From assembly GCA_965207375.1 (NCBI GenBank), contig CBDBMG010000002.1:256001-320000 (forward strand): DNA of 64,000 nucleotides, read 5' to 3'. A model generated the notes under the pieces. The model was not told the DNA's origin. It did not search any database and saw only the letters and a list, made by a program, of their open reading frames with translations. A program made the position numbers and the translations under genes. Source of the DNA: Nitrosopumilaceae archaeon (lineage in GTDB: Archaea > Thermoproteota > Nitrososphaeria > Nitrososphaerales > Nitrosopumilaceae). Below, one piece after another: positions 13,685 to 63,596 of the stretch. The first letter of the stretch is position 1. Every line of letters starts with the position of its first letter.

Positions 13685-16047
13685 TAGAGATGTACCGATC
13701 TAACACTTATGAGCCGATTCGATACCAATACGATTTAAGTAGCTAGTATTGCTATACCGATATTGCACCGATCCGATACCGATTCTGAATTTCTGATTTG
13801 AATACATGTCAATACAAAGAATTTATATTCAAATTACACATTCCACTGTACCTACTGTAATTATCTTTGCCACCCAGTTCGGTTGCTTCTGAATCTTTAT
13901 TCAGTGAAACAGGAGTGATTGACAGCAACCGCAGAAGGCGATTACTTGCTGACAAGATTGAGATGTTAACTTTCATCAAACGTAATGTGCTTTCTGTGAC
14001 GAGTGATAATTCCAAATGAACTTCCTGTAAGAGACCACAAACATACCTCCTGGCCACAGTTGCTAAAGCAGAATACTGTTGTTTGTGATTTTTCCAATAT
14101 TCTAAGGGTTCTATAAATTTATCATGTTTAGGGCCCTCCATTAGGGGTTCATCAAGATAATCAGAAATCATTTTAGAAATCTTTTCCACAGAAGTGTGAG
14201 GTATTACCGTAGGGGTTTTTCCTAGTTTCTTCATAGCATTTTTGCAGCTATCCCAAACACTAAAGCCCTTCTTTTTATTGCTACTAATACTGTTTTGATG
14301 TTCTGTGCTGCTATGTTGAGTGCTATCATCAATATCCATATGTTGAAACTCTGGTTGCTGCTCATTGTGTTCATCACTGGATTGTGTCACAATTTGAGTG
14401 GATTCTTGTGATCCTTGGTGAATAGCAGACTCACAAATAGTTAAGAGTGTCTGTGTAGCTGACTCAGTTATTGCTTTCTCAAAGAATGTAGCCTTAAATC
14501 GTGGATCAAGGAGGGTGGCTATTACAAAATAATCATCGTTGTAAACATATTCGAATCGTGACTTCAATGATTCAAGCATCTCTTCCTTGGTTGTTTTAAT
14601 CCCTGAATCACTCTCTTTTGGTGTGCTTAGTTCTATTTTCAAAGTTTCTAAAAAAGGTATTACTTGTGATATGCTGGCCTCCTTAGCACTTAATTCTTTA
14701 GTGACACGCTGAATAGGCTCTAATAGTTTCACAATTTTTTCTGCTTGCTGCCAGTCATTGGCACTTAGTCGTTCAGGCAGACCATAATCAGCATCATAAA
14801 GGCTTATCGCACGACGTTGCTCTACCAGACGTTCGAGCATATAGTAAGTTGAATCCCAACGAGTGGGCTCATCTTGCATAAGCTTGTGTTCAGCCAAACT
14901 CAATTGATGCTGAATGGAATGCAGGTGGCCTATTGCAAGACTTGAGTGTTTAAAATGACCCACTATCTTTCTGCACCGTGCCAGCATGTCTATAATACTC
15001 CTTTGTACCAAAATAGAATCTTTCACCACCAACTGCAGTGTGTGTATTGTACAGCCAACAGCTGCCAATCCACATTTCCTAATGCCTGCTACCATGTTTG
15101 CTGCATTATCACGAACTATAGTGTGTACTCTTGACTTGTCAATACTCCATCCATCTAGCAGCTTTGAAATCATTTCTGATATGGCATCTGCAGTATGGGA
15201 CCCTGGAAAATGACAAACCTGGAGCACCCGTTCTTCTCTGCAAAACTCTGAATTGATGTAATGTGCAGTCCAACTGATGAATGACTCACCACCATCACGG
15301 GACCAAATGTCAGTTGTGAAGCTAATAGAGAAGTTATCTTCAGAATGGAGATCTTCAAATAGCCTTTGCCTCAACTTGGTATACATATCAGGTATAATTC
15401 TTTCTGAGAAATACTTCCTTGATGGTACAACATATCGTGGACATACATGCGCCAATAGTCGAATGAACCCTGTGTCTACCACAATTGAAAACGGCTGTGA
15501 ATCAAGAGCAATCATCTCGGCGATTCGCTTAGTAACTTTAATATGCTCAGGATGATCGTAATTCCATGGTTCCTTTTGTTCTTTGAGCTCAACGAGTGTC
15601 AATTGGCGTGATTCACTTAGCCTTCTTCGTTTTATCACTTTGCCCTCTTCTGCCTTCTTTTCTGCTTCTTCGCGCTCTTTAACAAGAAGCTCATCAAACA
15701 ATTCATGGTGAAAGCGACGTAAATGATTTCTCAAATTAGTCGTGTTAAAATTTTTAACACTCAAACCTCCCCGACTAACACGTTCTTTACAATCATTGCA
15801 TATCGCAGTCTTCTCGTCTTCTTGATCAACAATAAAATAGTTCCATATCAGGCTTCTTTTCTTCAACGCAGCCATAGCACGGCTAATTTGTTGATGGTAA
15901 TTAGTTTTAAAATTTTTATCGACTATCGGTTTAATTAAAAATAGTTATCGGATCGGTGTGAGTGTCGTATCGGTAACTCCGATACAACTTGAAATACCTG
16001 AATCGGCTACCGATTCCGATTCGAATCGGTAAATTGTTACATCTCTA
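13685..16047 (-). mobile_element. Complete hAT DNA transposon (2363 bp)
   Basis: TIR TAGAGATGTA...TACATCTCTA; perfect 8-bp TSD cttttcac at 13677-13684 and 16048-16055; subterminal cgat/atcg repeats. Confidence 0.97.
13809..15875 (-). CDS. hAT (Ac/ZBED4-like) transposase, C-terminus scrambled by an internal inversion
   Basis: BED finger (IWNYF..AICNDC..TTNLRNHLRRFH), FTTDIWS, VRDNAANM, CTIH, TRWDSTYYMLERL, ATLLDPRFK, PLEYWK..LATVARRY. The expected continuation (PSSVASE) lies on the + strand at 13861-14019. Confidence 0.92.
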   Translation of the reverse strand: MAALKKRSLIWNYFIVDQEDEKTAICNDCKERVSRGGLSVKNFNTTNLRNHLRRFHHELFDELLVKEREEAEKKAEEGKVIKRRRLSESRQLTLVELKEQKEPWNYDHPEHIKVTKRIAEMIALDSQPFSIVVDTGFIRLLAHVCPRYVVPSRKYFSERIIPDMYTKLRQRLFEDLHSEDNFSISFTTDIWSRDGGESFISWTAHYINSEFCREERVLQVCHFPGSHTADAISEMISKLLDGWSIDKSRVHTIVRDNAANMVAGIRKCGLAAVGCTIHTLQLVVKDSILVQRSIIDMLARCRKIVGHFKHSSLAIGHLHSIQHQLSLAEHKLMQDEPTRWDSTYYMLERLVEQRRAISLYDADYGLPERLSANDWQQAEKIVKLLEPIQRVTKELSAKEASISQVIPFLETLKIELSTPKESDSGIKTTKEEMLESLKSRFEYVYNDDYFVIATLLDPRFKATFFEKAITESATQTLLTICESAIHQGSQESTQIVTQSSDEHNEQQPEFQHMDIDDSTQHSSTEHQNSISSNKKKGFSVWDSCKNAMKKLGKTPTVIPHTSVEKISKMISDYLDEPLMEGPKHDKFIEPLEYWKNHKQQYSALATVARRYVCGLLQEVHLELSLVTESTLRLMKVNISILSASNRLLRLLSITPVSLNKDSEATELGGKDNYSRYSGMCNLNINSLY

Positions 16048-39469: not shown

Positions 39470-40731
39470 GAAACAATACAAAGCACACACAATTCCACGC
39501 TGGCAGTGACCACATAAAGCAAACAATTCCGTGTTTGCGGAGGCCACATAAAGCACACAATTCCGCGCTTGCGGAGCACATTACGATTCCAAGCTCGTGG
39601 AGACAGTACAAAGCACGCTATTCAGCGCTTGCGGAGACCACACAAAACACACAATTCTGCACTTTCGGAGCACATTACAATTCCACGCTTGTGGTGACAA
39701 TACAAAGCACACTATTCCGCGCTTGCGGAGACCAAATAAAACACACAATTCTGTGCTTGCGGAGCCCATTACAATTCCACGCTCGTGGAGACAGTACAAA
39801 GCATCCTACTCTGTGCTTGCGGAGACCGCATAAAACACACAATTCTACACTTTCGGAGCACATTACAATTCCACGCTTGTGGTGACAATACAAAGCACAC
39901 TATTCCGCGCTTGCGGAGACCAAATAAAACACACAATTCTGCACTTGCGGAGCCCATTACAATTCCACGCTTGTGGAGACAGTACACTCTGTGCTTGCGG
40001 AGACCGCATAAAACACAGCACATTACAATTCCACGCTTGTGGTGACAATACAAAGCACACTATTCCGCGCTTGCGGAGACCAAATAAAACACACAATTCT
40101 GCGCTTGCGGAGCCCATTACAATTCCACGCTCGTGGAGACAGTACAAAGCATCCTACTCTGTGCTTGCGGAGACCGCATAAAACACACAATTCTGCACTT
40201 TCGGAGCACATTACAATTCCACGCTTGTGGTGACAATACAAAGCACACTATTCCGCGCTTGCGGAGACCAAATAAAACATACAATTCTGCGCTTGCAGAG
40301 CCCATTACAATTCCACGCTCGTGGAGACAGTACAAAGCATCCTACTCTGCGCTTGCAGAAACCACATAAAATGCACAATTCCGTGCTTGCAGAGCACATC
40401 ACAATTCCACGCTCGTGGAGACAGTACAAAGCATACAATTCCGCGCTTGCGGAGCACATTACAATTCCACGCTCGTGGAGACAGTACAAAGCACACAATT
40501 CCGCGCTTGCGGAGCACATTACAATTCCACGCTCGTGGAGACATTACAAAGCACACTATTCCATGCTTGCGGAGACCACATAAAACACACAATTCCGTGC
40601 TTGCGGAGCACATTACAATTCCACGCTTGTGGAGATAGTACAAAGCACACAATTCCGCGCTTGCGGAGCACATTACAATTCCACGCTCGTGGAGACAGTA
40701 CAAAGCACACAATTCCGCGCTTGCGGAGCAC
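39470..40731. repeat. Satellite array of 26-34-bp hairpin monomers with 60-, 94- and 188-bp higher-order periods
   Basis: Core acaattccgcgcttgcggag / acaattccacgctcgtggag; ORF-track ends recur every 94 nt. Confidence 0.95.
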
Positions 40732-41411
40732 CTTTTTACACCAGAAGAAAACAAAGCCCTTTCAACATTCGAGTCAATAAAACTGACGTTTTTATGTACA
40801 TCCACAATGACCACATCGATAAACATTGTGTTACCAAGAAGGCAATTTTTAAAGATAACATCTGAACAAAATATACTGTGATGAAACACAGAATTACTGA
40901 GATTACAATTAATAAATGATACTGCTTCTTTAAACTCAATGCCAACAAATGATAATCTGGCCATGTTTTTGTTTTCAAACACAATTTCTTCTATTGAACA
41001 ATACGAATAATATGAATTATTAATTCTCTTATTAAAATGATACATAAGATTGTCCTGAGTTATGACATCAATTTCACGTAGCAAAACTTTGACAAGACCA
41101 TCAAGTTGGTAAAATTTTGCTTCACAAAGGAGGTCCGATACTACATCAGCAGACAACCTGGAAAATGATTCAACCACTTCTTCTCCATTCCTCAAATAAT
41201 TAAGAATGCATCTAAAGTGAGTCCCATCTCGGTCAATGAAATAGCTTCCATCCTTACACTGCATTGCTTTCAAATCATGCCCACCACTAAACATCACTCC
41301 AAAATATGACTCAGGAAAGCTAGTTAGCGTAGATATAGATGTCAAGTAATGTATTCCTCCTACATTTAAGTCAATCATTGGCTCATCATTTCTAGCGTTA
41401 CCTGCATGTAC
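40305..41411 (-). CDS. BTB/POZ (KCTD-type T1) + pentapeptide-repeat exon (KCTD9/FIP2-like architecture); last ~140 codons are satellite
   Basis: IDLNVGG..Y.TS.STL...PESYF..MFSG..DGSYFIDRDG.HFR.ILNYLR, then F...F..C.L...F pentapeptides; splice acceptor ttacag near 41412. Confidence 0.85.
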   Translation of the reverse strand, partial: VHAGNARNDEPMIDLNVGGIHYLTSISTLTSFPESYFGVMFSGGHDLKAMQCKDGSYFIDRDGTHFRCILNYLRNGEEVVESFSRLSADVVSDLLCEAKFYQLDGLVKVLLREIDVITQDNLMYHFNKRINNSYYSYCSIEEIVFENKNMARLSFVGIEFKEAVSFINCNLSNSVFHHSIFCSDVIFKNCLLGNTMFIDVVIVDVHKNVSFIDSNVERALFSSGVKRCSASAELCALYCLHERGIVMCSASAELCALYYLHKRGIVMCSASTELCVLCGLRKHGIVCFVMSPRAWNCNVLRKRGIVCFVLSPRAWNCNVLRKRGIVCFVLSPRAWNCDVLCKHGIVHFMWFLQAQSRMLCTVSTSVEL

Positions 41412-44400
41412 CTGTAAGTAAAATGTATGTATTCGATGTGATTGAAGTGACTTTTATTGTGTCGGTGATCAATGCCTGATACTACAATAATGAAGAAACC
41501 TATAATGACTGATTGACTAGGCCATTTTTACTTGTTTATCAAAAACAAAGCTCTGGGTATAGTTATGTTACAAAACTATTTTTGGTTGTGGAACTTATGT
41601 GTGACATATAACAAGTGCACCATGCTAAATAATATAATATAAAATGCTAATAATCATGGCTAGTTATTCTAATCAACATTTGAAGCTTTGCATATATAGA
41701 AGCACATAGAAGCCGTAATTGTGGGTTTAAGTTTCTGAAATTTGACCCATACAAAATGATTACAATGCAAGAAATGAAATCTAGCTACTCACATGCACTA
41801 AGTATTTGAGTGGCCTGTTAGCTACAGATGAATATTCATACAGCTATAGATCTATACACCAGAGATCTCCATCACACAACATTTTTCATTTTTCAAAGGC
41901 ACAACAGGCCATGTTGGTCATCACATTAATGGTCTTTTTATTCCTAGAGTTTTTATATACAAATTATGGAAAACAAAGTTTCTTCTATAGAGGGGCTGTC
42001 CTGGTGAAATAGTTTGCCCTGGGCTGTAACTGAAGTTACCACCTTATCATCATTTAGAAATTTATGTTTTAGTTTGTTTTTTGGTATGTGTGTATTTGTT
42101 GTGTTGCATTGTTGTATATTATAGCTACGTACGTTGTATGTACAGAGCTCCACTGAAAATCAGTAGCCATTTATTTATTGAGTGAATGAACTCCCTGTTT
42201 AAATTATTACAATTACAAATACAATCAAACAAGACATGCAGTAGCTCAGTAGCTACCACACTAGCTAGCTAGCTAACTAATTATTCATAAATTTACATGG
42301 CCTATGCATGCAAGTAAAGATTTTGCATGGGATTAATAGTGGTAGTAGCTATAGCTACCATCCACTTAGCAAAGGCTAGCTATATATGGTAATGTAACAC
42401 AACAATGTGTGAAAATGTATTAAAAGTGAAGCCAATTGACTGCCTAGCTTACTATAACAGGATAGGCATTATAAGTGGAGAGGCATGTAAGCTAGCTAGC
42501 TTTTGCTTGATCATGATCATATGCATGAAATATACTTCATGATCATTGAGCATCCCATATATACTACGTACATAGTGGTAAAATAATATATTATTATACA
42601 GTAAGTTTACCTGGTCAGCTTAAGCTACATACTCATGATCAAAGGTGTATAGTATTAAGCTTGGTATGTACACATGTTCCTCCCTGTTATACTTTAGGCC
42701 AAGTGCCTCTTTATTTTGCCTGCTATGATGTATATATTATACTGTATGAGGTAGTCAGTAATATGCATGGTGCATGGTTTTTTAATACATTTGGATCTAG
42801 ATCTGTAGGCCTGTCAACTAACGTGCACATATCAGACAAGCTGTCACAAGCATAGTCAGCTGCTACAGAAATATACAGTGCATGGCATGCATGTAGTTGT
42901 CATGTACAGGATTATTCATAGGCATGCATATTGCATGATATGCCAGCACACTCTATTGTGAATTGTCCATAGGAATTAGAATATGTCTCGCTAAGTACAT
43001 TACTTTTGCCCCCACACTTTTAAATAGCTTCCAGTTATCTAAGCTTTGCTTGTTCTTGTAGTGAAGGGATAAAGCTAGGACTTATAATATGGATGAAATG
43101 GATGCTTCCCAGCACTACAATCAATCAACAATACATATATTTAGCGACATAAATATAGTGCAGCTCAGTTGAATACTCACTGTAAAAATTATAACACACA
43201 TAAATATCCACACAAATACTAAAGACTATGTAAAATGATTTGTATTTTAAAATAGTTGTGAGAAGTTCTACAACATCTGCTCATGACTTGTACACGCGTT
43301 CCTATGGCAAATAAATTAATTGCAATATTCACAACACACAGTGATATATCCATACCGTCACTATAATTATACATATGTCCTCTTCTTTGATCAGTCATAC
43401 CTTTGGCAAATCCGATATGTTTGGTAGCTACTCTAGTATACACTGCTATGGTAAAAATATAATACACACAGTGATAATAATTACATCCTTACTGCTATTA
43501 TCGCCGGTGACCATTTCCTATCACCTCCTGATTAATTGCGCATATGTTCCTGTGGCAAATAATAATTGACAATGACATATTCAACAAAAATTATTCTCTT
43601 GCAATTATTCGCACATGAATACAAACAGATCACGGTGGTTATAATTATGTAAAATAAGCATATAGTGTACCTGCTGATCCTGTGGTACCAGTAGGTCCGT
43701 GCAGCTGTAATAAACTTCAACTGTATGCATCTAGTAAATGTACAAAAATAACATCTTCTTTACATGCCTTTATTTGAATGTGCACACAAGCATGTATGTA
43801 TGCCTGCATCATGTAACAAAATTATAACCTTGCCACAAAATACAAACAATCCTCAAGGCCATATACTGTGTAACCATGGTGATGTATGCGGCGGTTACTG
43901 TGTCACCATGGTGATTTATGTGTTTGCAGAGTAACTATGTCACCTTGGCGATGTGTGTGTTTGCTCAGTAACAGGCTATATATGTACTGTGTAACCATGG
44001 TGTATAGATGGAGTTAAGGCAATACGTATCTGTCTAGCTGGATCCCATCAGCAGAACTATATATGTGATGAACATGTATAGCAACTAGGGATTACTTTAG
44101 CTTGGTTGGCATGACAATAGTGTTATCATGACAACAATATTAACATGTTGCATCCTAAAATGCATGCTCCTATGGGGTATTGTATGCATGGCAATTACTC
44201 GTAAAATATAACCCCAGTCAGTCAATATTTCCCCATCTGCACTCCAGTGGAACCTGTGTAATAAGGACAACTTGGGACCAACAAAGGGTGTTCTGATCTT
44301 TCAAGTTAGCTAATGTACTTCAACCACTAGTTTTAATTGGTACCTCAACTAATGTGTCGGTATACTGCGGTATCGGTCTTGTGTACATTTACCATATAGT

Positions 44401-49757: not shown

Positions 49758-49975
49758 GTCAGCTATCTGTCACAATGCAAAAACCATTGTGTCCAGGGCC
49801 CACCACCGAGGAGGTTGCTGACTACGGCCCCCGCCGCCACCATCCCCTCCTCCACCACTATCATCATATCATCGTCGTCATCATCACCATCATCGTCGTC
49901 GTCGTCATCATCGTCGTCGTCGTCGTCATCATCATCGTCGTCGTCATCATCATCATCATCGTCATCATCAAACCT
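49758..49975 (-). repeat. Left copy of inverted paralogous segment: (GAT/GAC)n + Gly-rich + QQPPRWWALDTM
   Basis: 49758-49858 matches the reverse complement of 63494-63596 with scattered differences. Confidence 0.85.
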
Positions 49976-50354
49976 ACACTACATAGCTAAAATGGAGAAG
50001 AAAACAACCAAAAAACATGGTTATATAATTCCTCTACTTATCCCATAATGTGTCTGCATCAATGCTGACAGCAGACTCCATCCTACATGTAAAGAAGTAA
50101 ATTCTATTTTATCACCATTATAACCTCAAGGGCAGAAGACATAGGGGGGAGCAGAGCCCCTCCACTTTGACAGGAGGGGGGCTAAGCCCCAAAGAAATTA
50201 ATGTTTTAAAATAATGATTTTATAATTACTGATCTACTCTAACAGAACATTCTCATTCTAATAGAGCAATCAGTGGAGCTGTCTTTAAATTTGACAAACC
50301 CAGGCAATTATAAGAGTAAAAATTAGCATATCATTGTGAACATTTTGTTCCACA

Positions 50355-50975
50355 TATGTGACTGTATCTGCAAAAACCAGCCTAGTTCGCACTAAAATTT
50401 AAATTCATTTTTTTGGCCCAGCGCATAGCTATACTCAATAGCTACCCAAACACCATGTCTCCTATGGCCAGACTCAAGTGGTCTGCTTTTCTAAGGGGAG
50501 GTTTTGCAGCCTTGTAAGGCCATGACCGACACATTGGCACCTGTGGAGCGCACCAATTGGGCATTATCGGCCTGGAATTCTACCCTTGACCGGAATGATG
50601 TCCCTTCGGCCTGGTTGTATGGTCAGGACCATCTGTGGGCAACTGGTCACCTCGTGTCTTCACCTGGGGGTTTTTGCCACCTCCCTTCCCCACCCGCCCC
50701 TCCCTCTCCTCCCACCCGCCCACCCCCTTGTAACACTGGGCTAAAATTGATGCACACCTTTGAAAAAATCGTCTGAAAAGGCCTAAAATCAAGCAAGGAA
50801 CAACTTCAAAGGTAAACTGTATTTTATTCAATAGATTACTAAGTCCAGTTCTGTTAAACAAAAGCAGCCTAGTACGAGCAAAAGCTGGTAATTTTTAATT
50901 AAAATCTTTAAACAAGTGTTTCTCTAATTACTACCAGGTGCGAACTAGGCCGGTTTTTGCAGAGACGGTCACATA
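50355..50975. mobile_element. Full-length TATGTGAC-ended MITE (~38-bp TIRs), nested in an older element (50128-51015)
   Basis: tatgtgactgtatctgcaaaaaccagcctagttcgcac / gtgcgaactaggccggtttttgcagagacggtcacata. Confidence 0.88.
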
Positions 50976-51699
50976 TACAAACATTTTACTATTACCCCCT
51001 GTATCTGCACCCTGGTAGCTACCCTACTTCTGTTCAACAATTTCTTACTAGTAGTTAGAGTAGCAGTCAAGGGAGTTGAATTTTGTAGTTCGTATTGTAG
51101 CTAGTGACTGTGTAAGTAGTCATTTATGATTGTCAAAACCTACAAATATCACAAAATAGGTTAAGAGGCCTTACATAACTACGTAGTAGTACTGATAACA
51201 TGTACCATTGCTTACATTTCCTGTGCCCATCACTCTAAATATCCACTTAGTTAAATCATTCTTCCACTTGAGTGTAAATCATTTAAATTGTGAATCTGGA
51301 ACAATTACCACGGCTCCATACATATAAACAATGACATATTAAACACAATTACCTCAACAACATACACTTATTATACAAACACTCTAATAAAACAATCACG
51401 GTGTACGTATACAGCAAAACATTCGACAGGGATCACAGTTAGAATAGAAAATAAACATTCATGGGAAACTTTCGTGGTAGCAGCTCCTTATAACGACGAG
51501 TACATAATCTAGTAAATTTTGTTTGACATAAAACATTCGTGGTCGAGTAAAAAATTGCAGCAAACTGCAAAGGTTTTCCCTCCCAAATGTTTTACCATAT
51601 ACGCTGTAAATAGCATTGGAAAATGTTTAAGTAATCTCCAAAAATGACAAAGAGAATTGTATACCCGAGTAGCTGCTGCATGTTTTTGATATTTAATCA

Positions 51700-54525: not shown

Positions 54526-54878
54526 TAGGCCTCAGTCAAATATGCTCAAAAATTTGCCCAAAATGCTTTTGGGAATTTCCCAAAAATTTCCCCTATTATG
54601 CTTAGACTTCTTCCTATTATGCTCGATTATGCTAACAGTAATTATAGCTGTGAGATATGTATATACACATAATTTATATAATTAGCTCTATTAACTAAGT
54701 ATACAGCTTTCAGTTAGTTCCTTAACTACACTGCTGTCACAAGGCGTGCCATCTTGAAACAGTTTACTAAAAATTACGATTTATTCCAGGATACTACCCC
54801 AAAATGCCAGCATTATGCTAGCATAGCAGGTCAGCCTATTATGCTTTAAATTATGCCGGCATATTTGACTGAGGCCTA
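54526..54878. mobile_element. hAT-type MITE with 8-bp TSD, upstream of the Helitron ORF
   Basis: 20-bp TIR taggcctcagtcaaatatgc; TSD gtctagcc at 54518-54525 and 54879-54886. Confidence 0.92.
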
Positions 54879-55266
54879 GTCTAGCCCATGGCTGTGGGTT
54901 TGTAATATTAGTATAAAGTATATAAATGTGGTTGTCTCTGTTAGCTTGCTGCATGTATACTATACTATAAGAAATAAATCGTGTTTTGTGAGTCCATGCG
55001 TAATTTGTTTTTAAGTATGATACCTGCAAGGTTGTGCGTGTCAGATAGTTAATTATTGCGTGTAACATGCGAGGCTTATGTTTATTACACGCATGTTGCA
55101 TTTAGCTTGTGGGTAGTTTATACCATAGGTTTACTTACGAAGTAATCTTTTTTGTTCATGTACCACATCAAATATACATAGCTATTTGTTATATTTTATG
55201 TGTATACATGTACTTGTTTACATTTTTACTGATACATTGACAACATTTATAGCTTTACAATACAAA

Positions 55267-58200
55267 ATGATCTCAAAACAACGTAAGCGTCGTTACTATC
55301 GCAAAAAAATCTACCAGATGAAACAAACTGAAGAATCTCAAGACAGTAACATGATCAATGATGATCAAAATACTAACAAAGTTGATACTCAAGATTGTAA
55401 CATGAGCAGTGATGACCAAGATAATGACAAAGTCAATGATGCTCAAGATAATAATGAAAAACGTCGTTAGAACAACAGGAAAGATGAAACTAATTTAAAA
55501 CGACGCCAATCTTATCTTGTAAACCCTGCTGGTATTCGCCATAGGGTCAAAGAATCATACCATAAAAATCCTACTCCAAAAAGACAAAGAATGAAACAAG
55601 CATACACCAGCAATCCATCTCCTATTCGTCACAGAGTTAGGGAAGCATACAAGAAGAATCCGTCTCCTGTACGTAGGAGGGTAAAGCATGCCTATAGCCA
55701 ACATGCAAAACCTGTTAAGAAACGAGTTAGGGACTCTTATCAGTCTAACCCTTCACCAATACGAAAACGTGCTCGTCTTTCATATGCTGCAAATCCTTCA
55801 CCCATCAAGAAGAGAGTGTTAAGAAGGTATCGTGATCATCCCTCTCCATTTAAGGAGCGTTCAAAACAAGTTTACCATTCCAACGTAACTGCTAGTAGAT
55901 CTCTACGACGTAAGCGATATTCTGAAGATCCTTTCCCTGCTTTGAAAAGGTCTCAACTATATTACAGACAACATCAAAATGAAGTGCTAAAGAGATCTAT
56001 GCATCGCAGACATGCAACTTCAGCTGCACTTGCTATTTGGAATAAATATGACTGAATTTTCCATAGAAAATTTGGTCAATATGGTACATACAAAGAATAT
56101 GTTGAAAAGGTCCTTAGAAAGCTTGGATTGCGAAACAAAGCTACCAATAAGCTGAAAGCTCAACTGTTAGTACGGTCATGTCTGCAACAGCTCAGCCTTT
56201 ACAAGCATAGATTTATGACATCTTTTGACAGGTTACAGAACATGGTTAAAGCTTCAGTCAGTAAAGCTACTGAAGTGGCTACTACAGATCTGGAGGTGTT
56301 AGACATATTCTGTGGTGGGAGTCTGCATACAAGCAACACAGAGTTGTATAATTGTGGACCATGTTACAACCCTGAAGCTTTTAGAGAAGACGGAATATTG
56401 GATTTGGAGAAATTTCCAAGTACCGAAATTAACTATGTTGGAGACAAATGCGTTGCAACTTGGGAATGCTGTTTAGATCCACCTCTTTGTAAGCTTGATA
56501 CTGCAGTAATATTAACCAAGTTACGCTCAATATATTCAAGCATTATCGATTGTTCTGCCAATGCCACTCGCAAATATATGAAACATATGGATGACTGTTC
56601 AAGTAGCAAATTAAGGGACAAATCTTTACAGGGTCATCCACTCGAGTGTTATTTATCTTCACCTCCATGTGCCTCAGAGTTGCTGTACCTATGCATTTTA
56701 GCACCACATTTCCCTGCTATCCGCCGTATTGTTATGACTATATATGAAGTGCGGAGGTATGACCGTAGAATAACTGAAATAGAATATGCTTTGCGGTATG
56801 GTCACTTGGATAAAATATTAGAAATTGTAAAGGAAGCCTGGACTATTCGAATGAGACTATATGATGTTTCAGCTGAGGTTTTAAATGAAAAGAGCATCTA
56901 TGAAACTTACAATAAAGCTTTCTCAAAGTTTAATAAAAGGTGTGAAGATGTAGCCAAATATCCTTGCATTTCATGTGATAAGCTATGCTTTCTGAGAGAA
57001 TGTTCACGTGTAGGTCATTTAAAGGTAGTTCCATCCAACAGACACTGGAAGGATCTTTTGGAATTCAATGAAACTAGGCCTGATTTCGACGACACTCTTC
57101 TGAATGATCATATATGTGACTATTGCATTGAATATTTTAGATCAGATAGACTGCCACCGCGATGTATTTTAAATGGATTGGATTTTGGTGGTACTGTCCC
57201 AGAAGAAATTAAACTTTTAAATACTTACGAGAGGGTACTTATACAGAGAGCAAAGTGTTTTCAAACTGTTACCAGGATGGGTACGGTTGCCAAGAGACAT
57301 TTACCATCTACTCACAGGATTCGGAAGATCCGTGGTACTACATTCCATCTGCCATTGCCTTTGCAAGAAACATTGAAGAGATTGCCAGAACCACATCAAC
57401 CTCTGGCAGATACTAGTGAATTATATATTCTACTGCGTAGCATCCCAACTAAGGCAAATGTAATATGGCAAGATTTGGTTGATGTTCACAAGGTATACCG
57501 TGCTTTGCAAAAGCTGAAAGAAATTAACCATCTCTATTTTGCAATTGTAATGCCGGGACAACCTCATGAACTTCAGTTGGAAATGCAAATTGAAGAATTT
57601 TCTGCTACATCTGAGGATGCTATGATCCAACAAATTGCTGAACATGAAGAGGCTGCTTTGTATGAGCAATACACCATTAATGCACTTCATGCACCCAGAC
57701 AAAATGAGAAAGCCACTGCTCTTTATCAATTGCTTAAGGTTAATGAAGCTCCTCTTGACAGCCGCACCAAGTATTTGGATATGCTTTGTTTTCCAGATTT
57801 GTATCCACATGGCATAGGAGGCCAGACAAGTCACAGAGAAGTACCACTAAACCCGGCTGAGTATGTCAAATGTATTCTGATGTCCCGTGATTCACGATTT
57901 CGATTGAATCAACAGTTCATTTTTTATTTGTTACACCAAGCCACCTTGCGACAGATAGCTAGCGGGATATATCATAAGCTTAAAGTAACCCGTCCTAAAG
58001 AAAAGCTCACTGCTGCACGGTGTCTGCAGTTACTGTCCAGGGATGAATTGGAGGGAAACCTTACAACAATATTTTCACGACTACGTAACACTGAACAGTA
58101 TTGGATCTGCCCTCGCAATGATTTAAATTGCATGATGTTTCATTACAGACCTGCTACTTGGTTCATCACTCTGAGCCCGGGTGAATGGCTTTGGGAAGAC

Positions 58201-59700
58201 CTTGGTGCCTACTTGCGTGAGCTAAATCCTGAAATGAGTGATTCGACTATCAGTGAATTAGTGGTTGCATATCCAGTTTCCACATCTAGGTTTATCGACA
58301 ACAAATTTAAAGCTGTACTGGAGTTTCTTTTGTTCCACAAAGTTCCTGTTGAGAAACGTCCCTTGGGTAATGTTATTCACTACTGTGTTAGACGTGAATA
58401 CCAGGGAAGGGGACTTCAACATTTTCATCTACAATTGTGGATAGAAGGTGCTCCACTCATAGGTGAAAGAACAACAGACGAGGACGAGATATGTACATTC
58501 ATTGCAAAATATGCTACTTGTCAAATCCCTGACCCAACATTGTGTCCTACACTCTATGAACGTGTCATGAGGTTTCAGCAACACAAGTGTAATGATTATT
58601 GTTTACGAAGTAAAAAAATAAAAACTGGCTTCAAGAAAGCATGTCGATTTGGCTTTCCAAGACCTCAGCGTGAAAAAATGCATCTCCGCAGTGTTGTGGA
58701 AGCTGTGGCAGGTAGGAAGTGTTTAAAGGCTAATTCCCGTCTGTATGATCTTCCTCGCAAAAGTAATGCAATAAGAATAAATGATTACAACCCTGCCATT
58801 TTGCTTGCCTGGGAAGGTAACATGGACATCCAGTACATTGGAGAGAATTCAGCTATTCTGAACTGGTATTGCACCAAGTACACAACCAAAGCAGAAAAAA
58901 GTCACTGTATACAGGTGTTTGATGACATTACCTCCACCAAATCACTAGCCAGTAGATTATGGAATGTTGCACTTAGGAGCCTTTCTCACAGAGAATGTGG
59001 AGCACTTGAAGCTGCTGACACACTCTTAGGAATCTCTCTGTTCAGCACTGATAAAAATACTACCATTCGATGGGTTGATGTTAACATGGTGCGCAGTAGA
59101 AAATTGAAAGATAGAGCAACAATTGAAGCTCTAGATGATGAATCCTCAGACATTTTCTTTCCTTCGTGGGTTGACAGCTATTATCCTAACAGGGCTGAAG
59201 AACTTGTAGGCATGCATCTGTATGATTTCTTGGCTTGGCAAGTCTGGGAGCGAAAAGAGCCAAGTAAAAACACTATGTACTATCCATTCATGGGTGGTTT
59301 CTTGAAAAAGAGGGACCGCCCATATCTGCTTAATCACTACAAATACAGTGTCAGTGAAGAACCAGAGAAATACTACTACTCATTATTGCTTCTTTTCAAA
59401 CCATGGAGGGACTGTGAAAGTCTATTGGGTGGTTGTGAAACGTATGCTGAAGCATTTCATTCCTTCACAGCTGAATCTACAGATGCTGTAAATTACCACA
59501 ATCACTTACAGCAATACCAAGGCAAAGACAAGACCATTAGGATGGAAATAGACAAGTGTCGTACTCAGATGGAGATTGAAGAACAAAATTCCAACAAAGA
59601 GGCACATGAAAATGATCCATTACTGCATGGGGTTTCAGAGGCTAAGGAAGCTATGGCAGATTTTGAAGCTGCTTTGATAGATCATGACGACACATGTTAA
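55267..59700 (+). pseudogene. Helitron/Helentron Rep (HUH endonuclease) with N-terminal 15-aa Y..NPSP repeats; two in-frame stops (55468, 56053)
   Basis: ORFs 55186, 55591 and 56128 share one frame. Motifs: CFPDLYPHG, PATWFITLS (1), EYQGRGLQHFH (HUH), CRFGFP, YNPAILLAWEGNMDIQ, YCTKYTTK (catalytic Tyr pair). Confidence 0.93.
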
Positions 59701-61290
59701 TGCAATGATAGAAAATTTAAATGAAGATCAGTTGAGGGTATTTGACACAGTTAGAAACAGTGTGCACACCCAGTGCCTGACATCACAAGCTGACAATGCA
59801 GAGCCATTGCGAATGTTCATCAGTGGATGTGGTGGTACTGGCAAGAGTTATCTAATTAAGACAATCAAAGCATGGGTTTGCTCAGCAACTGACAAACATG
59901 TTGCAGTCACTACTCCAACAGGAATTGCTGCATTCAACATAAACGGCCTAACCATTCATCGGTTATTGCAGTTACCTGTGGAGCATGGCAAAACTCCACA
60001 GTATCGTCCACTATCAGATAACAGCCTCAAAATTGTTAGGCAACGCCTGCATAATTTGATATTGCTCATAATAGATGAGATCTCAATGGTTAGTCATGTT
60101 ACTTTGCTATATATACATCTCCGATTGACTGAGATATTTCAAACAGAAGAAATGGAAAATGGTTGGTTCGGTTGCAAAAATATACTGGTGTTTGGTGATT
60201 TGTTACAGTTACCACCTGTATTTGAAAGTCCAGTGTACATTCCACTGACATCTACCATTGTTAACAAACACACTAGTTCTGTAGGAGGTGCTGATATCTG
60301 GAGCCGATTGTTCAGCTATGATGAACTTACTATCAACATGAAACAGAAGGAACACGGTGAATTTATTGAACTACTTGGTAGGGTTCGGTTAGGTGCACTT
60401 TCAGCGAGTGATATCAAAATATTGTCAAATTGTAAGATACCGCTTAGGAGTGACACAGTGAACGGACGCATGAAGGAAATCGTGTCCAAGCTTGCAGAGC
60501 TACCAGAGGACACAGTATGTCTATTGCCAACTAGACATATGTGTGAACAGATCAATGCAGAGGTGCTGAAGGGTCTTACTGGTAAACAGTATAGTATTGT
60601 TGCAGAAGACAGTGTAGACTGTTCAGCAACCCTTTTGCAGAAAGTTAAACAAAAACTAGCAAAATATTCAGAAGACTCCACTCACACTGCCGGTCTAGAG
60701 AATATGATTACTATAAAAGTAGGCTGTAAAGTTATGCTACGACGCAACATAGATGTCACTTTGGGATTGGTTAATGGAGCAATTGGAACGATTCGCAATG
60801 TTCAACGGTGCATTGATCATGCAAACAAGATGGATACTGTAACCATCATGTTCAGTAACAATCAAGAGCATCACTTGAAAAGGGTCACTACTAAGTTTGA
60901 GGTGTTTGACAAGGTATATGTCATTCGCTCTCAGTTTCCTATAACCACTGCATATGCCATAACAATACACAAGAGCCAAGGGCTCATACTCAACCATGTT
61001 TTAACAGACATCGGCAACACTATCTTCACCTGTGGTCAAGCTTATGTAGCTCTTTCAAGAGTTAAAAGTATTGAAGGCCTGCACCTAATCAACTTTGATC
61101 CTAGATCTATCAAGGCATTGGATTCAGCAATTTTAGAGTATAATCAGCTTAGAAAAGATTTCAGGTCTAACATGCAACCATTTGTTCTCCCTAAACGACG
61201 TCCCAAAGCAATTGATGATAGACAGTGGTGCACAATCAGGTCTGCATCTGCAGTACAACAACCTGTCAACCAACCAGCTCAAGATGTTAC
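59684..61290 (+). CDS. Helitron Pif1-family SF1 helicase domain
   Basis: LNEDQ, GCGGTGKS, PTGIAA, IIDEISMV, FGDLLQLPPV, VMLRRN..GLVNG, QFP...AYAITIHKSQG, GQAYVALSRV. Confidence 0.95.
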
Positions 61291-61294
61291 CTTC

Positions 61295-62085
61295 AAGGGC
61301 AAGGGATTTGTCAACTCTGATGGCGTCTCTAGTTACGCTAATTCAGTTATGCAATGCCTATTGTTGTCTCCTGCTGTATGTCAGGCTATGCAGCAGAGCA
61401 CCAGTACAGCTATCAAGGACATGTGTGATGCATATACATCAACGGCTGAGTGTAATTTGGATTGTCTACAGCTCCGGCAAGAACTAGGAGCGCCTTTTGA
61501 TAGACCACATACTCAAAGTCCTGTTGCATTTTTACAAGCACTAGTACACCATTCATCACACTTAAGCTCCGCACTTTAGCATACTGTGAGATTGCACATT
61601 CAGTGTACCCACTGTAACATTGCTAGTTTTACTGAAAACCAACAGCACATCATTCCACTATCCATTCCGACATCAGTGAAAAGCTTGAAATTGACCAAAC
61701 TAATGCAAATGTACATGGATTGGACTCAGTCAGCAGATAAGTTCTGTGATGTTTGCGAGCATCCAGTGAAAGTGCGTACAGAAATTGTAAATGCCAAACA
61801 TGTACTGATATTGCAGATGGATGTGTGGAGTAGCATTGATGATAATGCTATCAAGCGAAAGACAAACATCATATCCTTACCAGATAGTTCAATTACAATA
61901 GGTAGTAGTACATACAAACTCATGTCAGCTGTTAGCCTTTTGCCCAGCACTAGACCAAGCTGTCATTACTTCACCATACTGTCAACTAAAGGAAGAAAGT
62001 GGCTACATTTTCAGGATCTGGCTGCCTCTACTGCCCCTTGGCCTCGTGGAGGAAAAGATGTGCTAATACTATTTTATCACCTTAA
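61295..62085 (+). pseudogene. USP (peptidase C19)-like domain 1, degenerate; in frame with helicase, TAG at 61577
   Basis: GFVNSDGVSSYANSVMQCL (Ser at the Cys position), CTHC/CDVC zinc-ribbon pairs, Y.L.S...CHY...W..F.D...LILFY. Confidence 0.78.
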
Positions 62086-62399
62086 AAATACTGTTGCATC
62101 CATGAAAACAACAGCAGCTAAGGACAGTAGCAGAAGAGAAGCTGGGCATTGCACTACAACATCACCACAAACCATTTTTGCTAAATCGCACAGAATGAAG
62201 ACAACCACATCCGTATCAACCGAAGCTGCCACAACTACACCAACAACTATGACATACACAACAGCAAATTTCACAACTACAACTGGACCTACTACAGTAT
62301 CTCCAACAGCAACCCCAACAGTGGGTACAGCAACAACTACAACCAACACTGCAGCTGAGTGTGGCACAACATCAGGAGGCACCAGTTTGACTTTTAACA

Positions 62400-63220
62400 A
62401 GTGTAAGGGGTTTACCAACAATGATGGTGTTTTGTGTTATGCAAACTCAATATTACAATGCTTATTGCAGCACAGGTCTGTCAGAAATGCATGTGTAATT
62501 AGTAGATATTCTGTGCTTCGTGATTTGACTCATAACTATGTTGATCCTACAAAGGTCGACCTTCTTACCAGCAGATCTGTTCGTAAACTGCTTCGAGCAC
62601 CCTTTTCTGTTAATAGACAACAAGATGCAGCTGAATTTTTAGAAGCATTAGCCATGTTCTGTACACCTTTAAAAAACTGCTTACAGTATACCATTACAAC
62701 ATACCTACGATGTTCCAACTGCACATACACAAGCAGTAGACATGAAGCTAACACTATCTTGCCATTAGTGATACCAGCTGACTCAACCACAGTGAGATTA
62801 CACGATTTATTGGCAAAATTAAGCGATTGGGAAACCATGCTGGGCTCACACTGCAATACATGCAATGCCGATGGAGCTGTTTTTCAGACACGTCAAGAAC
62901 TGGTTGGAGCTAGTGAACTTATTGTTGTACAGCTTAAGTTGTACGTGATTGGAGTAGATGGAATACCACACAAACTAAGAGTTTCTATAGACGATTTCAC
63001 CAGCAGTACTATAACTGTGCAAGGGCAGTGCTACAAAGTGCACAACATTGTTAGCCATCATGGCCCTAGTGCACTCTCAGGTCATTACACCTCCTATCAC
63101 AAGCAGAATAGAGGATGGACATTGGTCAATGATTATCATTTAACAAGGGCATTAGAACCAGAAACCAACAGTGATGTTTATATTTTATTCTATGCCAAAC
63201 AACCTCCAGGTCATCGCTGA
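62400..63220 (+). CDS. USP (peptidase C19) domain 2 with intact catalytic boxes
   Basis: Cys box GFTNNDGVLCYANSILQCL, QQDAAEFL, CSNC/CNTC, His box HHGPSALSGHYTSY, W.LVND, YILFY. Confidence 0.9.
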
Positions 63221-63349: not shown

Positions 63350-63596
63350 TAGGTAAATGATGATAACAACAACAACGGTGTTTATGAAATCAAAGTGTTT
63401 GTAAAGTTGATGATGATGATGATGATATGAAGAAGATGATGATGATTATGTTGATGATGATAAGGATGATGACGACGATGATGATGATTTTACGTGGTGG
63501 TGGAGGGGATGGTGGTGGTGGGGCCCGAAATCAGCAACCTCCACGGTGGTGGGCCCTGGACACAATGCTCGTTTAGCATTGTGACTAATAGCTGAC
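63350..63596 (+). repeat. Right copy of inverted paralogous segment: (GAT)n + Gly-rich + QQPPRWWALDTM
   Basis: Reverse complement of 49758-49975. Confidence 0.85.

What the first reader, a model, noticed from the sequence alone, without database searches (positions are those of the whole stretch)
55267..63220. Helentron-type rolling-circle transposon polyprotein ending in two tandem USP deubiquitinase domains
Seen: repairing three stops (each one C>T change from a sense codon) and one frame change at ~59690 gives a ~2650-aa intronless protein: basic Y..NPSP repeats, HUH Rep, Pif1 helicase, USP1, Thr-rich linker, USP2. USP2 keeps the Cys box, QQDA.EF, His box and ND. USP1 has Ser at the catalytic Cys (AGT, one base from TGT) and a degenerate His box. 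Known: Helentrons usually append an AP endonuclease here, and some Helitrons carry OTU-type proteases. I do not know of a described tandem C19/USP cassette replacing the endonuclease. Inference: the element encodes its own deubiquitinase, possibly a ubiquitin-binding pseudo-enzyme plus an active enzyme, to protect the covalent Rep-DNA adduct from ubiquitin-dependent removal or to counter chromatin silencing.
Basis: partly seen in the sequence, partly recalled or inferred. Interest (0 to 1): 0.88.

Follow-up and report, generated by a model that had tools for sequence, protein, structure and literature searches.

The report
Rolling-circle transposon with two deubiquitinase domains
This is a broken copy of a jumping gene of an animal host, probably a sponge, whose single giant protein joins its DNA-cutting and unwinding parts to two ubiquitin-removing domains, the first apparently inactive; the general type is already in print, but this in-frame tandem layout is not.

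Summary
Window 55267-63220 (+) is one intronless reading frame broken by three stops and one 2-base frameshift. It encodes a 15-residue basic NPSP repeat, DUF6570, HUH Rep, Pif1 helicase, USP1, a Thr-rich linker and USP2. It is collinear end to end with an intact 2795-aa Dysidea avara protein.

All four lesions are private to this copy: contigs of public runs read sense codons and two extra bases there.

This is not a one-off capture. The same Rep-Pif1-USP-USP layout occurs in D. avara and in the whitefly Bemisia tabaci, and 21 further representative proteins have Pif1 followed directly by a USP.

Ser at the USP1 nucleophile position is the family state (16 of 16 sponge-lineage proteins), not decay. 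It recurs in three tandem pairs that the trees do not unite.

The novelty claim is overstated. The HELIANO paper (PMC11417382) already lists the UCH domain as typical of the Helentron/Helitron2 clade. Erven et al. (PMC9741609) showed active OTU/VTD-class deubiquitinases in Helentrons.

Not described in the papers I searched: the in-frame tandem Ser-USP plus Cys-USP, and its presence in sponges and insects. No endonuclease is present.

The contig is eukaryotic DNA mis-binned with a bacterial genome. The scan did not find this on other DNA.

The parts
55267..63220 (+). Decayed single ORF of an autonomous Helitron-like element (HLE2 clade). It would be about 2650 aa if read through.
   Evidence: Collinear with the intact D. 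avara protein P0163: its residues 174-1609 match window 55504-59688 (frame 1, 56.7% identity) and 1613-2794 match 59696-63199 (frame 2, 53.7%). The start Met at 55267 (MISKQRKRR) resembles the D. avara and Bemisia N-termini.
55468..55470 (+). In-frame stop TAG, private to this copy
   Evidence: Contigs of runs X1 and X6 read G at 55469; X2 does not.
55498..55995 (+). Basic tandem repeat of 15 residues (Y..NPSP..KRR)
   Evidence: NP[ST]P at residues 101, 116, 131, 161, 176. Matches the longer repeat array of D. avara P0163. No Pfam family.
56053..56055 (+). In-frame stop TGA, private to this copy
   Evidence: Other contigs read C at 56053: X1, X6, and 672 of 955 depth in X2.
57145..57540 (+). 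DUF6570, a Cys-rich domain that marks the HLE2 clade
   Evidence: Pfam PF20209, 2e-14. HELIANO calls it HLE2-specific. 68.4% identical to D. avara.
57862..58431 (+). Rep HUH endonuclease (Helitron_like_N). HUH lies at 58420-58428; the two-tyrosine motif YxxxY lies just beyond, at 58867-58881.
   Evidence: Pfam PF14214, 1.8e-17. Motif coordinates. 67.9% identical to D. avara.
59689..59695 (+). Frameshift: this copy lacks two bases here
   Evidence: The frames meet at 59688/59696. The C2 copy has 2 extra bases at 59693. All four runs show 2 bases put in behind 59693.
59696..61201 (+). Pif1-family SF1B helicase (Walker A 59825-59848, DE 60074-60079)
   Evidence: Pfam PIF1 2.1e-26 and Pif1_2B 3.9e-07. 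67.9% identical to D. avara. Motifs.
61286..62101 (+). USP1: a complete USP-fold domain with Ser (AGT 61331-61333) at the nucleophile position. His 61964-66 and Asp 62015-17 are kept. The QQD motif is replaced. Interrupted by the TAG at 61577-61579.
   Evidence: UCH 2e-05, 24.8 bits. 30% identical to USP2. Ser in 16 of 16 sponge-lineage proteins with the motif. The P0002 homologue folds with pLDDT mostly above 90. 43.5% identical to D. avara. Other contigs read C at 61577.
62102..62389 (+). Thr-rich linker, predicted disordered
   Evidence: 19.3% identity to D. avara with 17 gaps. pLDDT below 50 in the P0002 model, residues 318-400.
62390..63220 (+). USP2: USP domain with the full Cys (62435-37) / His (63083-85) / Asp (63131-33) triad, QQD, two CxxC pairs, then the stop codon
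   Evidence: UCH 3.2e-20. Triad Cys in 20 of 20 sponge-lineage proteins with the motif. 52.6% identical to D. avara. Foldseek: USP46, USP12, USP35, USP21, USP2, USP7, USP30, TM up to 0.76.

Best explanation
SHOWN. The stretch is a dead copy of an autonomous rolling-circle transposon of the HLE2 (Helentron/Helitron2) clade. It has three private stops and one private 2-base deletion. The transposase is one intronless polyprotein with these parts, in order:
- a basic NPSP repeat
- the DUF6570 zinc-finger-like region
- a Y2 HUH Rep nuclease
- a Pif1 helicase
- a USP domain with Ser in place of the catalytic Cys
- a disordered Thr-rich linker
- a USP domain with an intact Cys/His/Asp triad

It has no AP endonuclease. 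It lies in eukaryotic DNA, probably of a sponge, that was binned with a 2.2-Mb bacterial chromosome. The family has intact, nearly identical multi-copy members in Dysidea avara. The same layout occurs in a whitefly.

INFERRED. USP2 is an active deubiquitinase that travels with the transposase. It removes ubiquitin either from the transposase itself or from proteins at the replicating donor or target site. The transposase is a likely target because it becomes a covalent 5'-phosphotyrosyl protein-DNA adduct. This keeps the transposition complex from ubiquitin-dependent degradation or extraction. It is the same need that OTU and VTD domains are thought to serve in other HLE2 lineages.

USP1 is most likely a non-hydrolysing ubiquitin-binding module, a reader or substrate trap, that feeds or positions USP2.
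For: Architecture and motifs.

Full-length collinearity with the intact 2795-aa D. avara XP_065913923.1.

Lesions private to this copy.

Family, not capture:
- The D. avara paralogues of 2548-2795 aa are 97-98% alike.
- Bemisia CAH0382899.1 has DUF6570 + Helitron_like_N + PIF1 + two UCH domains.
- 21 representative proteins have Pif1 directly upstream of a USP, and 18 of the 21 carry C/H/D.

The transposon-borne USPs form one group against 7 host-like USPs (SH-aLRT 99).

Constraint: USP1 is 43.5% and USP2 52.6% identical between sponge lineages, against 19.3% for the linker. USP2 has Cys in 20 of 20 and USP1 has Ser in 16 of 16.

Both domains fold as complete USP cores.

No endonuclease.

Eukaryotic contig:
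- ORFs of at least 150 aa cover 10-19% of C2-C4 against 78% of C1.
- A hAT/BED transposase and a BTB gene lie in the window.

Precedent for a deubiquitinase need: PMC9741609 (passages read) and PMC11417382 (sections 22 and 23).
Against: - No activity, binding or expression data exist. No RNA run was listed.
- Between the two copies in this genome, dN/dS for USP2 is 0.94. That rests on only 13 changes and says nothing either way.
- USP domains evolve faster than Rep and Pif1 (44-53% against 68% identity), so they are less constrained.
- Trichogramma has Pif1 with only a Ser/Tyr USP. An inactive USP alone can therefore persist, or that copy is decaying.
- The element's ends and target site could not be defined, so mobility of this family is inferred from copy pattern only.
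- The host is inferred from the nearest named homologue only.
Confidence: 0.72

Rival explanations
1. One-off gene capture: a Helitron picked up, or landed beside, a host tandem USP gene. On this view the fusion is an accident of this locus.
For: Helitron-like elements are known for capturing host gene fragments (PMC11417382 section 22).
Against: - The same in-frame order is seen in intact D. avara proteins, in Bemisia tabaci and in ENA contig proteins 74-95% identical.
- 21 further proteins join Pif1 to a USP.
- The USP rows with Pif1 context group apart from host-like USPs.
Confidence: 0.02
2. A domesticated host gene family, a helicase-USP protein of the animal, rather than a mobile element.
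For: - RefSeq annotates the D. avara relatives as ordinary proteins.
- Element termini and target-site features were not found here.
- Trichogramma keeps Pif1 with an inactive USP only.
Against: - D. avara has several 97-98% identical paralogues on different large contigs.
- This genome has one full but broken copy and one 5'-truncated copy.
- HUH, YxxxY and Walker motifs are kept.
- DUF6570 + Helitron_like_N + PIF1 is the HLE2 transposase signature.
Confidence: 0.06
3. USP1 is not a dead domain. It is either a Ser-nucleophile hydrolase (a Ser/His/Asp triad on a papain-like fold), or the USPs serve mainly to process the polyprotein in cis, as viral papain-like proteases do.
For: - Ser, His and Asp are all kept in USP1 in 7 of the 8 tandem USP1 rows, and D. 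avara separately has Glu for His (table).
- Ser, rather than any other residue, recurs in three tandem pairs.
Against: - D. avara USP1 has Glu, P0096 has Phe, and Trichogramma has Tyr at the His column.
- The QQD motif is lost in USP1 of the window lineage.
- No ubiquitin-like fold or conserved GG site lies at the domain borders in the alignment.
- From general knowledge (recalled), Cys-to-Ser USP mutants are used as inactive ubiquitin traps. Entries such as USP35 C450S and USP2 C276S bound to ubiquitin appear.
Confidence: 0.12
4. The element is truly in a bacterial genome, through horizontal transfer into the bacterium whose assembly holds the window.
For: The assembly is filed as a prokaryote genome, with 99.95% completeness and 0.06% contamination.
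Against: - C1 (2.16 Mb) is 78% covered by long ORFs; C2-C4 are only 10-19% covered.
- C2-C4 are full of interspersed repeats with tens of copies.
- The window carries hAT/BED and BTB genes.
- Marker-gene contamination scores do not see eukaryotic DNA (general knowledge).
Confidence: 0.01

Closest known systems
UCH-bearing Helitron-like elements of the HLE2 clade (subgroups c and d of HELIANO; Li et al., NAR 2024, PMC11417382)
   Same: DUF6570 + Helitron_like_N + PIF1 with a Pfam UCH (USP-class) domain and no Exo_endo_phos domain. The paper says UCH is almost exclusive to HLE2 and enriched in subgroups c and d (sections 22 and 23 read).
   Different: - The paper reports only a Pfam tally. It names four domains as sharing the RepHel ORF, and UCH is not among them. 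It says the other domains lie in different ORFs.
- It says subgroups c and d came mostly from lungfish and axolotl.
- Here the USPs are in frame with RepHel, are tandem, the first has Ser for Cys, and the hosts are a probable sponge, D. avara and insects.
- I could not place this element in their subgroups. Their supplements and figures were not available to me and may show more.
Helentron-encoded VTD and OTU deubiquitinases (Erven et al., Nat Commun 2022, PMC9741609)
   Same: A rolling-circle transposase ORF carries one or two deubiquitinase domains, some active and some inactive. The authors propose that Helitrons benefit from deubiquitination that different DUB classes can supply (passages read).
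   Different: - Those are VTD (herpes tegument-like) and OTU folds, sit in endonuclease-bearing Helentrons, and were shown active on K48/K63/K11 chains.
- Here the fold is USP, the endonuclease is absent, and there is no biochemistry.
- USP-class domains in Helitrons are not mentioned in the passages I read.
Canonical Helentrons (Rep-Hel plus a C-terminal AP endonuclease)
   Same: HLE2-type RepHel core with an N-terminal zinc-finger-like region.
   Different: No AP endonuclease appears in the ORF, and the 2.2 kb downstream holds no ORF of 100 aa or more. The C-terminal position is taken by the USP pair.
Cellular USP catalytic cores (USP46/USP12, USP35, USP21, USP2, USP7, USP30)
   Same: Same fold (Foldseek probability 1.00, TM for the target up to 0.76). 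Same Cys box, QQD and His box in USP2.
   Different: Only 16-22% identity in the structural alignments. The core is minimal, about 270 aa, with the signature CYAN in place of the host-like CY[LM]N. It forms its own group against 7 host-like rows.
Pseudo-enzyme and enzyme pairs among deubiquitinases, and pseudo-USPs (recalled, not tested: Rpn8-Rpn11, CSN6-CSN5, Abraxas-type partners of BRCC36, USP39, PAN2)
   Same: An inactive paralogue sits beside an active one. This would be the working model for USP1 and USP2.
   Different: Those pairs are mostly JAMM-class and are separate polypeptides. An interaction between USP1 and USP2 was not shown here.

Membership tests
Helitron-like elements, HLE2 clade (Helentron/Helitron2) | Rep HUH nuclease with two catalytic tyrosines (Helitron_like_N) | tested here: met
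   PF14214 at 1.8e-17. HFH at 58420-28 and YCTKY at 58867-81, aligned with the D. avara and Bemisia motifs.
Helitron-like elements, HLE2 clade (Helentron/Helitron2) | Pif1-family helicase fused downstream of Rep | tested here: met
   PIF1 2.1e-26 and Pif1_2B 3.9e-07. Walker A and DE motifs located.
Helitron-like elements, HLE2 clade (Helentron/Helitron2) | DUF6570 upstream of Rep, which HELIANO proposes as the HLE2 marker | tested here: met
   PF20209 at 2e-14. Marker statement read in PMC11417382 section 23.
Helitron-like elements, HLE2 clade (Helentron/Helitron2) | Characteristic termini, a 3' hairpin and insertion between T and T | tested here: inconclusive
   This genome holds only one full copy and one 5'-truncated copy. 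Their likeness ends at the window-equivalent position 65387, after a 360-nt hairpin that also has partial copies elsewhere. The 5' end was not found.
Helentron in the strict sense | AP-type endonuclease (Exo_endo_phos) downstream of the helicase | tested here: not met
   No such Pfam hit at E <= 0.01 in any of the four ORF pieces. No ORF of 100 aa or more in the 2.2 kb after the stop.
Peptidase C19 / USP deubiquitinases (USP2 domain) | USP fold with a Cys box, QQD, and a His box with Asp/Asn | tested here: met
   UCH 3.2e-20. C/H/D columns filled, with coordinates. Fold matches.
Peptidase C19 / USP deubiquitinases (USP2 domain) | Hydrolysis of ubiquitin conjugates | not testable with these tools
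   Needs an enzyme assay.
Peptidase C19 / USP deubiquitinases (USP1 domain) | Catalytic Cys nucleophile | tested here: not met
   Ser (AGT 61331-33). Ser in 16 of 16 sponge-lineage proteins, and in Bemisia and P0096. The fold is USP, so it is a USP-fold domain but not a canonical Cys protease.

The most novel reading that the evidence does not exclude
Rolling-circle transposons of the HLE2 clade have evolved the same two-part ubiquitin module more than once: a Pif1-proximal USP whose Cys is replaced specifically by Ser, followed by an active Cys USP. This would have happened by separate tandem duplications in a sponge lineage, a whitefly lineage and a third lineage (P0096). It would point to selection for a ubiquitin reader plus eraser fused to a transposase that must survive as a covalent protein-DNA adduct.
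Probability: 0.3. Interest if true: 0.65.

Novelty: new variant of a known kind. Interest (0 to 1): 0.5.

Why it matters
Three unrelated deubiquitinase folds (OTU, VTD, USP) are now seen fused to or carried by one clade of rolling-circle transposons. This strengthens the idea that escaping ubiquitin-dependent removal is a general need of these elements.

The intact D. avara and Bemisia proteins give natural, testable material. They can show what a transposase-borne deubiquitinase acts on, and whether a Ser-for-Cys USP works as a ubiquitin-binding partner.

Tried and rejected
I therefore could not fetch DNA of the D. avara, Bemisia or ENA copies, and there is no multi-lineage dN/dS and no termini from other copies.
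- The search for related loci found nothing in genome contigs (0 of 27 candidate stretches). It found one distant locus in metagenome contigs (L007, 24% identity), which I did not use further.
- The second homologous-protein search, with alignment A2, gave only three known sponge-lineage relatives, three plant host USPs and one unnamed Logan protein. It added no new taxa.
- dN/dS between the two copies of this genome: 0.44 overall, USP1 0.18, USP2 0.94. It rests on 27.5 synonymous and 41.5 non-synonymous changes in all, too few to say anything per domain.
- Differences among D. avara paralogues are too few to compare domains.
- No RNA holder was listed for the stretch, so there is no statement on expression.
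- Complex prediction of USP1 against USP2 gave no answer.
- The protein atlas gave only leads: 'USP47-like' chordate clusters and giant-virus USPs.
- Rfam found nothing in the window.
- The inverted repeat 49785-49858 / 63494-63567 was considered as element termini. I could not test this, and it may be host sequence.
- The 353-bp repeat at 54526-54878 was considered as a shared 5' end. It looks like an independent small repeat with its own ends repeated elsewhere.
- The AU test group was named after I had seen the tree, which weakens its p-value. Gene conversion between USP1 and USP2 could mimic separate duplications. However, the pairs are only 25-32% identical.

Full report
WHAT IS THERE

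The + strand of window 55129-63220 carries five long open frames. Three are in frame 1 (55129-55470, 55471-56055, 56056-59700) and two are in frame 2 (59681-61579, 61580-63220). They are separated by TAG 55468-70, TGA 56053-55 and TAG 61577-79, and by a frame change near 59690.

Pfam finds the following:
- DUF6570 (2e-14) and Helitron_like_N (1.8e-17) in the 56056 frame
- PIF1 (2.1e-26) and Pif1_2B in the 59681 frame
- UCH (3.2e-20) at the end of the last frame

The first USP domain is split by the TAG. Read with X at the stop, it passes the UCH cut-off narrowly (24.8 against 23.9 bits). It is a clear paralogue of the second USP (30% identity, E 2e-35).

The catalytic motifs are in place: HUH, YxxxY, Walker A and DE in RepHel, and Cys (TGT), QQD, His and Asp in USP2. 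USP1 has AGT (Ser) at the nucleophile codon but keeps His and Asp.

WHERE IT LIES

The assembly holding the window has four contigs. C1 (2.16 Mb) is 78% covered by ORFs of 150 aa or more. C2, C3 and C4 are covered only 10-19%, and the window is C3:256001-320000. C2-C4 are dense with interspersed repeats. The window also holds a hAT/BED transposase and a BTB_2 gene.

The contig is therefore eukaryotic DNA binned with a bacterial genome. The nearest named relatives of the element are in the sponge Dysidea avara, so a sponge host is likely but not shown.

A FAMILY, NOT A CAPTURE

A search with USP2 returned proteins 74-95% identical from ENA contigs, and D. avara proteins 52-53% identical. One of the D. 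avara proteins carries PIF1 and UCH together.

The D. avara cluster contains intact proteins of 2548-2795 aa. They have the NPSP repeat, DUF6570, Helitron_like_N, PIF1 and both USPs. For P0163 itself Pfam did not list UCH, although its C-terminus is nearly identical to that of P0161 and P0169, where UCH scores 1e-22 to 1e-23.

The window is collinear with the 2795-aa protein in two blocks, which meet at the frameshift. The D. avara paralogues are 97-98% alike over all domains, as expected of a recently amplified element.

An exhaustive profile-free search gave 1427 proteins at E <= 1e-3. Among the 150 best:
- A 2998-aa Bemisia tabaci protein has DUF6570, Helitron_like_N, PIF1 and two UCH stretches.
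- By my own USP and Pif1 profiles, 21 proteins have a Pif1 tail directly followed by one near-complete USP. Of these, 18 have Cys/His/Asp, two have Ser/Tyr and one has Arg.
- Named hosts of further relatives are the wasps Trichogramma kaykai and Eretmocerus hayati. In Eretmocerus the USP lies N-terminal to DUF6570.

THIS COPY IS DEAD, ITS RELATIVES ARE NOT

Contigs of four public runs were laid on the stretch. They read a sense codon at each of the three stops:
- G at 55469 in two runs
- C at 56053 in three runs
- C at 61577 in all four runs

They also carry two extra bases behind 59693 in all four runs. The second copy in this genome (C2, about 96% identical, 5'-truncated at 59404) also has the two bases.

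STATE OF THE TWO USP DOMAINS

In sponge-lineage proteins of 400 aa or more, the USP1 motif has Ser in 16 of 16 cases and the USP2 motif has Cys in 20 of 20. The pattern I used allowed only C, S, A, G or T at that place. Bemisia and the unnamed P0096 show the same Ser-then-Cys order. D. avara USP1 has Glu at the His column.

Identity between the window and D. avara is as follows:

| Part | Identity |
|---|---|
| DUF6570, Rep, Pif1 | 68% |
| USP2 | 52.6% |
| USP1 | 43.5% |
| Linker | 19.3% |

Both USPs are therefore constrained, USP1 less than USP2.

An AlphaFold2 model of the ENA protein P0002 (USP1-linker-USP2, 42-row alignment) gives two confident USP cores and a disordered linker. Its best PDB matches are USP46, USP12, USP35, USP21, USP2, USP7 and USP30. 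By sequence, the nearest solved structures are USP21 and USP2.

ONE DUPLICATION OR SEVERAL?

In a 44-row IQ-TREE analysis:
- The transposon-type USPs separate from 7 host-like rows (SH-aLRT 99).
- Sponge USP1 (support 100) and sponge USP2 (support 99) form separate clades.
- Bemisia USP1 and USP2 are each other's sisters (88), as are those of P0096 (99).

Forcing the six tandem USP1 rows into one clade costs 38.6 log-likelihood units (p-AU 0.012). I named that group after seeing the tree.

A Pif1 tree places the sponge clade with single-USP elements (93), away from Bemisia.

This fits separate duplications with repeated Cys-to-Ser change. Loss of USP1 in many lineages, or gene conversion, is not excluded.

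WHAT IS KNOWN

I made six full-text searches.
- Only the HELIANO paper and its preprint name UCH in Helitron-like elements. They say UCH is 'stably included', almost exclusive to HLE2 and enriched in subgroups c and d, which came mostly from lungfish and axolotl. They do not list UCH among the domains sharing the RepHel ORF (sections 22 and 23 read; preprint passages).
- Erven et al. found VTD and OTU deubiquitinases in Helentrons, showed the VTDs active, and suggested that Helitrons need deubiquitination (passages read).

I found no text on an in-frame tandem USP pair, on the Ser state, or on sponges. Supplements were closed.

MECHANISM

Shown: the domain order, the motifs, the conservation and the family spread.

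Inferred:
- USP2 is an active deubiquitinase working for the transposase.
- USP1 is a ubiquitin-binding, non-cleaving partner.
- The benefit is protection of the transposase or its covalent DNA adduct from ubiquitin-dependent removal.

No tool here tests the inferred steps.

BOUNDARIES

The two copies stay alike up to the window-equivalent position 65387. They end after a 360-nt near-perfect hairpin (dG -216 kcal/mol, z -38), which has partial relatives elsewhere. No ORF of 100 aa or more lies after the stop. The 5' end is unknown.

VERDICT

This is a known kind of element (HLE2 with a USP-class domain) in a variant not described in the papers I could read. Interest is moderate.

Noticed in passing
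whole assembly G000 (contigs C2, C3, C4; the window is C3:256001-320000): About 2.1 Mb of eukaryotic DNA, probably from an animal host, sits in an assembly scored 99.95% complete and 0.06% contaminated. Long-ORF cover is 10-19% on C2-C4 against 78% on the 2.16-Mb bacterial contig C1.
   Followed up: partly
beyond the window: G000:C3:321026-321386 (L008:2026-2386): A 360-nt near-perfect palindrome (97% self-complementary, DNA fold -216 kcal/mol, z -38) lies where the two element copies stop being alike. Partial relatives lie at C3:594030, C3:329726, C4:542198 and C4:598337. It is either a terminal hairpin or a separate fold-back repeat.
   Followed up: partly
window 50354-50977, and G000:C3:321381-321970: Two abundant short repeats, of about 625 bp and about 590 bp (the latter partly palindromic). 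Each has tens of copies at 70-95% identity across C2-C4. They are probably non-autonomous transposons.
   Followed up: no
window 54526-54878: A 353-bp repeat lies about 390 bp upstream of the transposase start. There is a 95% copy at C4:792410-792777, and its two ends are repeated separately elsewhere, like a small inverted-repeat element.
   Followed up: partly
window 49785-49968 and 63427-63567: An inverted repeat brackets the ORF region. It has a 74-nt arm (91% complementary) plus a GAT/ATC microsatellite, 13.6 kb apart, and is found nowhere else in G000 except in the C2 copy. It could be element structure or duplicated host exons. Earlier notes of this scan raised the same point.
   Followed up: partly
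window 55267-63220: Against contigs of four public runs, the window copy has A where the others have G at 23-34 places, but G where the others have A at only 9-17 places. T-for-C (12-16) and C-for-T (10-18) are balanced. This is a G-to-A excess on the + strand of this copy (table 1). Sequence context was not examined.
   Followed up: no
window 13812-15944 (-) and 40308-41453 (-): A 711-aa open frame has BED zinc finger and hAT dimerisation and RNase-H-like domains, so it is a hAT transposase. A 382-aa frame has BTB_2 plus pentapeptide repeats.
   Followed up: no
proteins P0077, P0213, P0048, P0214 (Eretmocerus hayati) and P0053, P0210 (Trichogramma kaykai): In the parasitoid wasp Eretmocerus the USP lies N-terminal to DUF6570. 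In Trichogramma, Pif1 is followed by a single USP with Ser and Tyr at the Cys and His places. Eretmocerus parasitises whiteflies (recalled), but its USPs do not group with those of Bemisia.
   Followed up: partly
proteins P0010, P0146, P0087, P0100: Gene models of up to 3205 aa are made of up to ten near-identical host-type USP domains (signature CYLN). They are probably tandem USP gene arrays merged by annotation.
   Followed up: no
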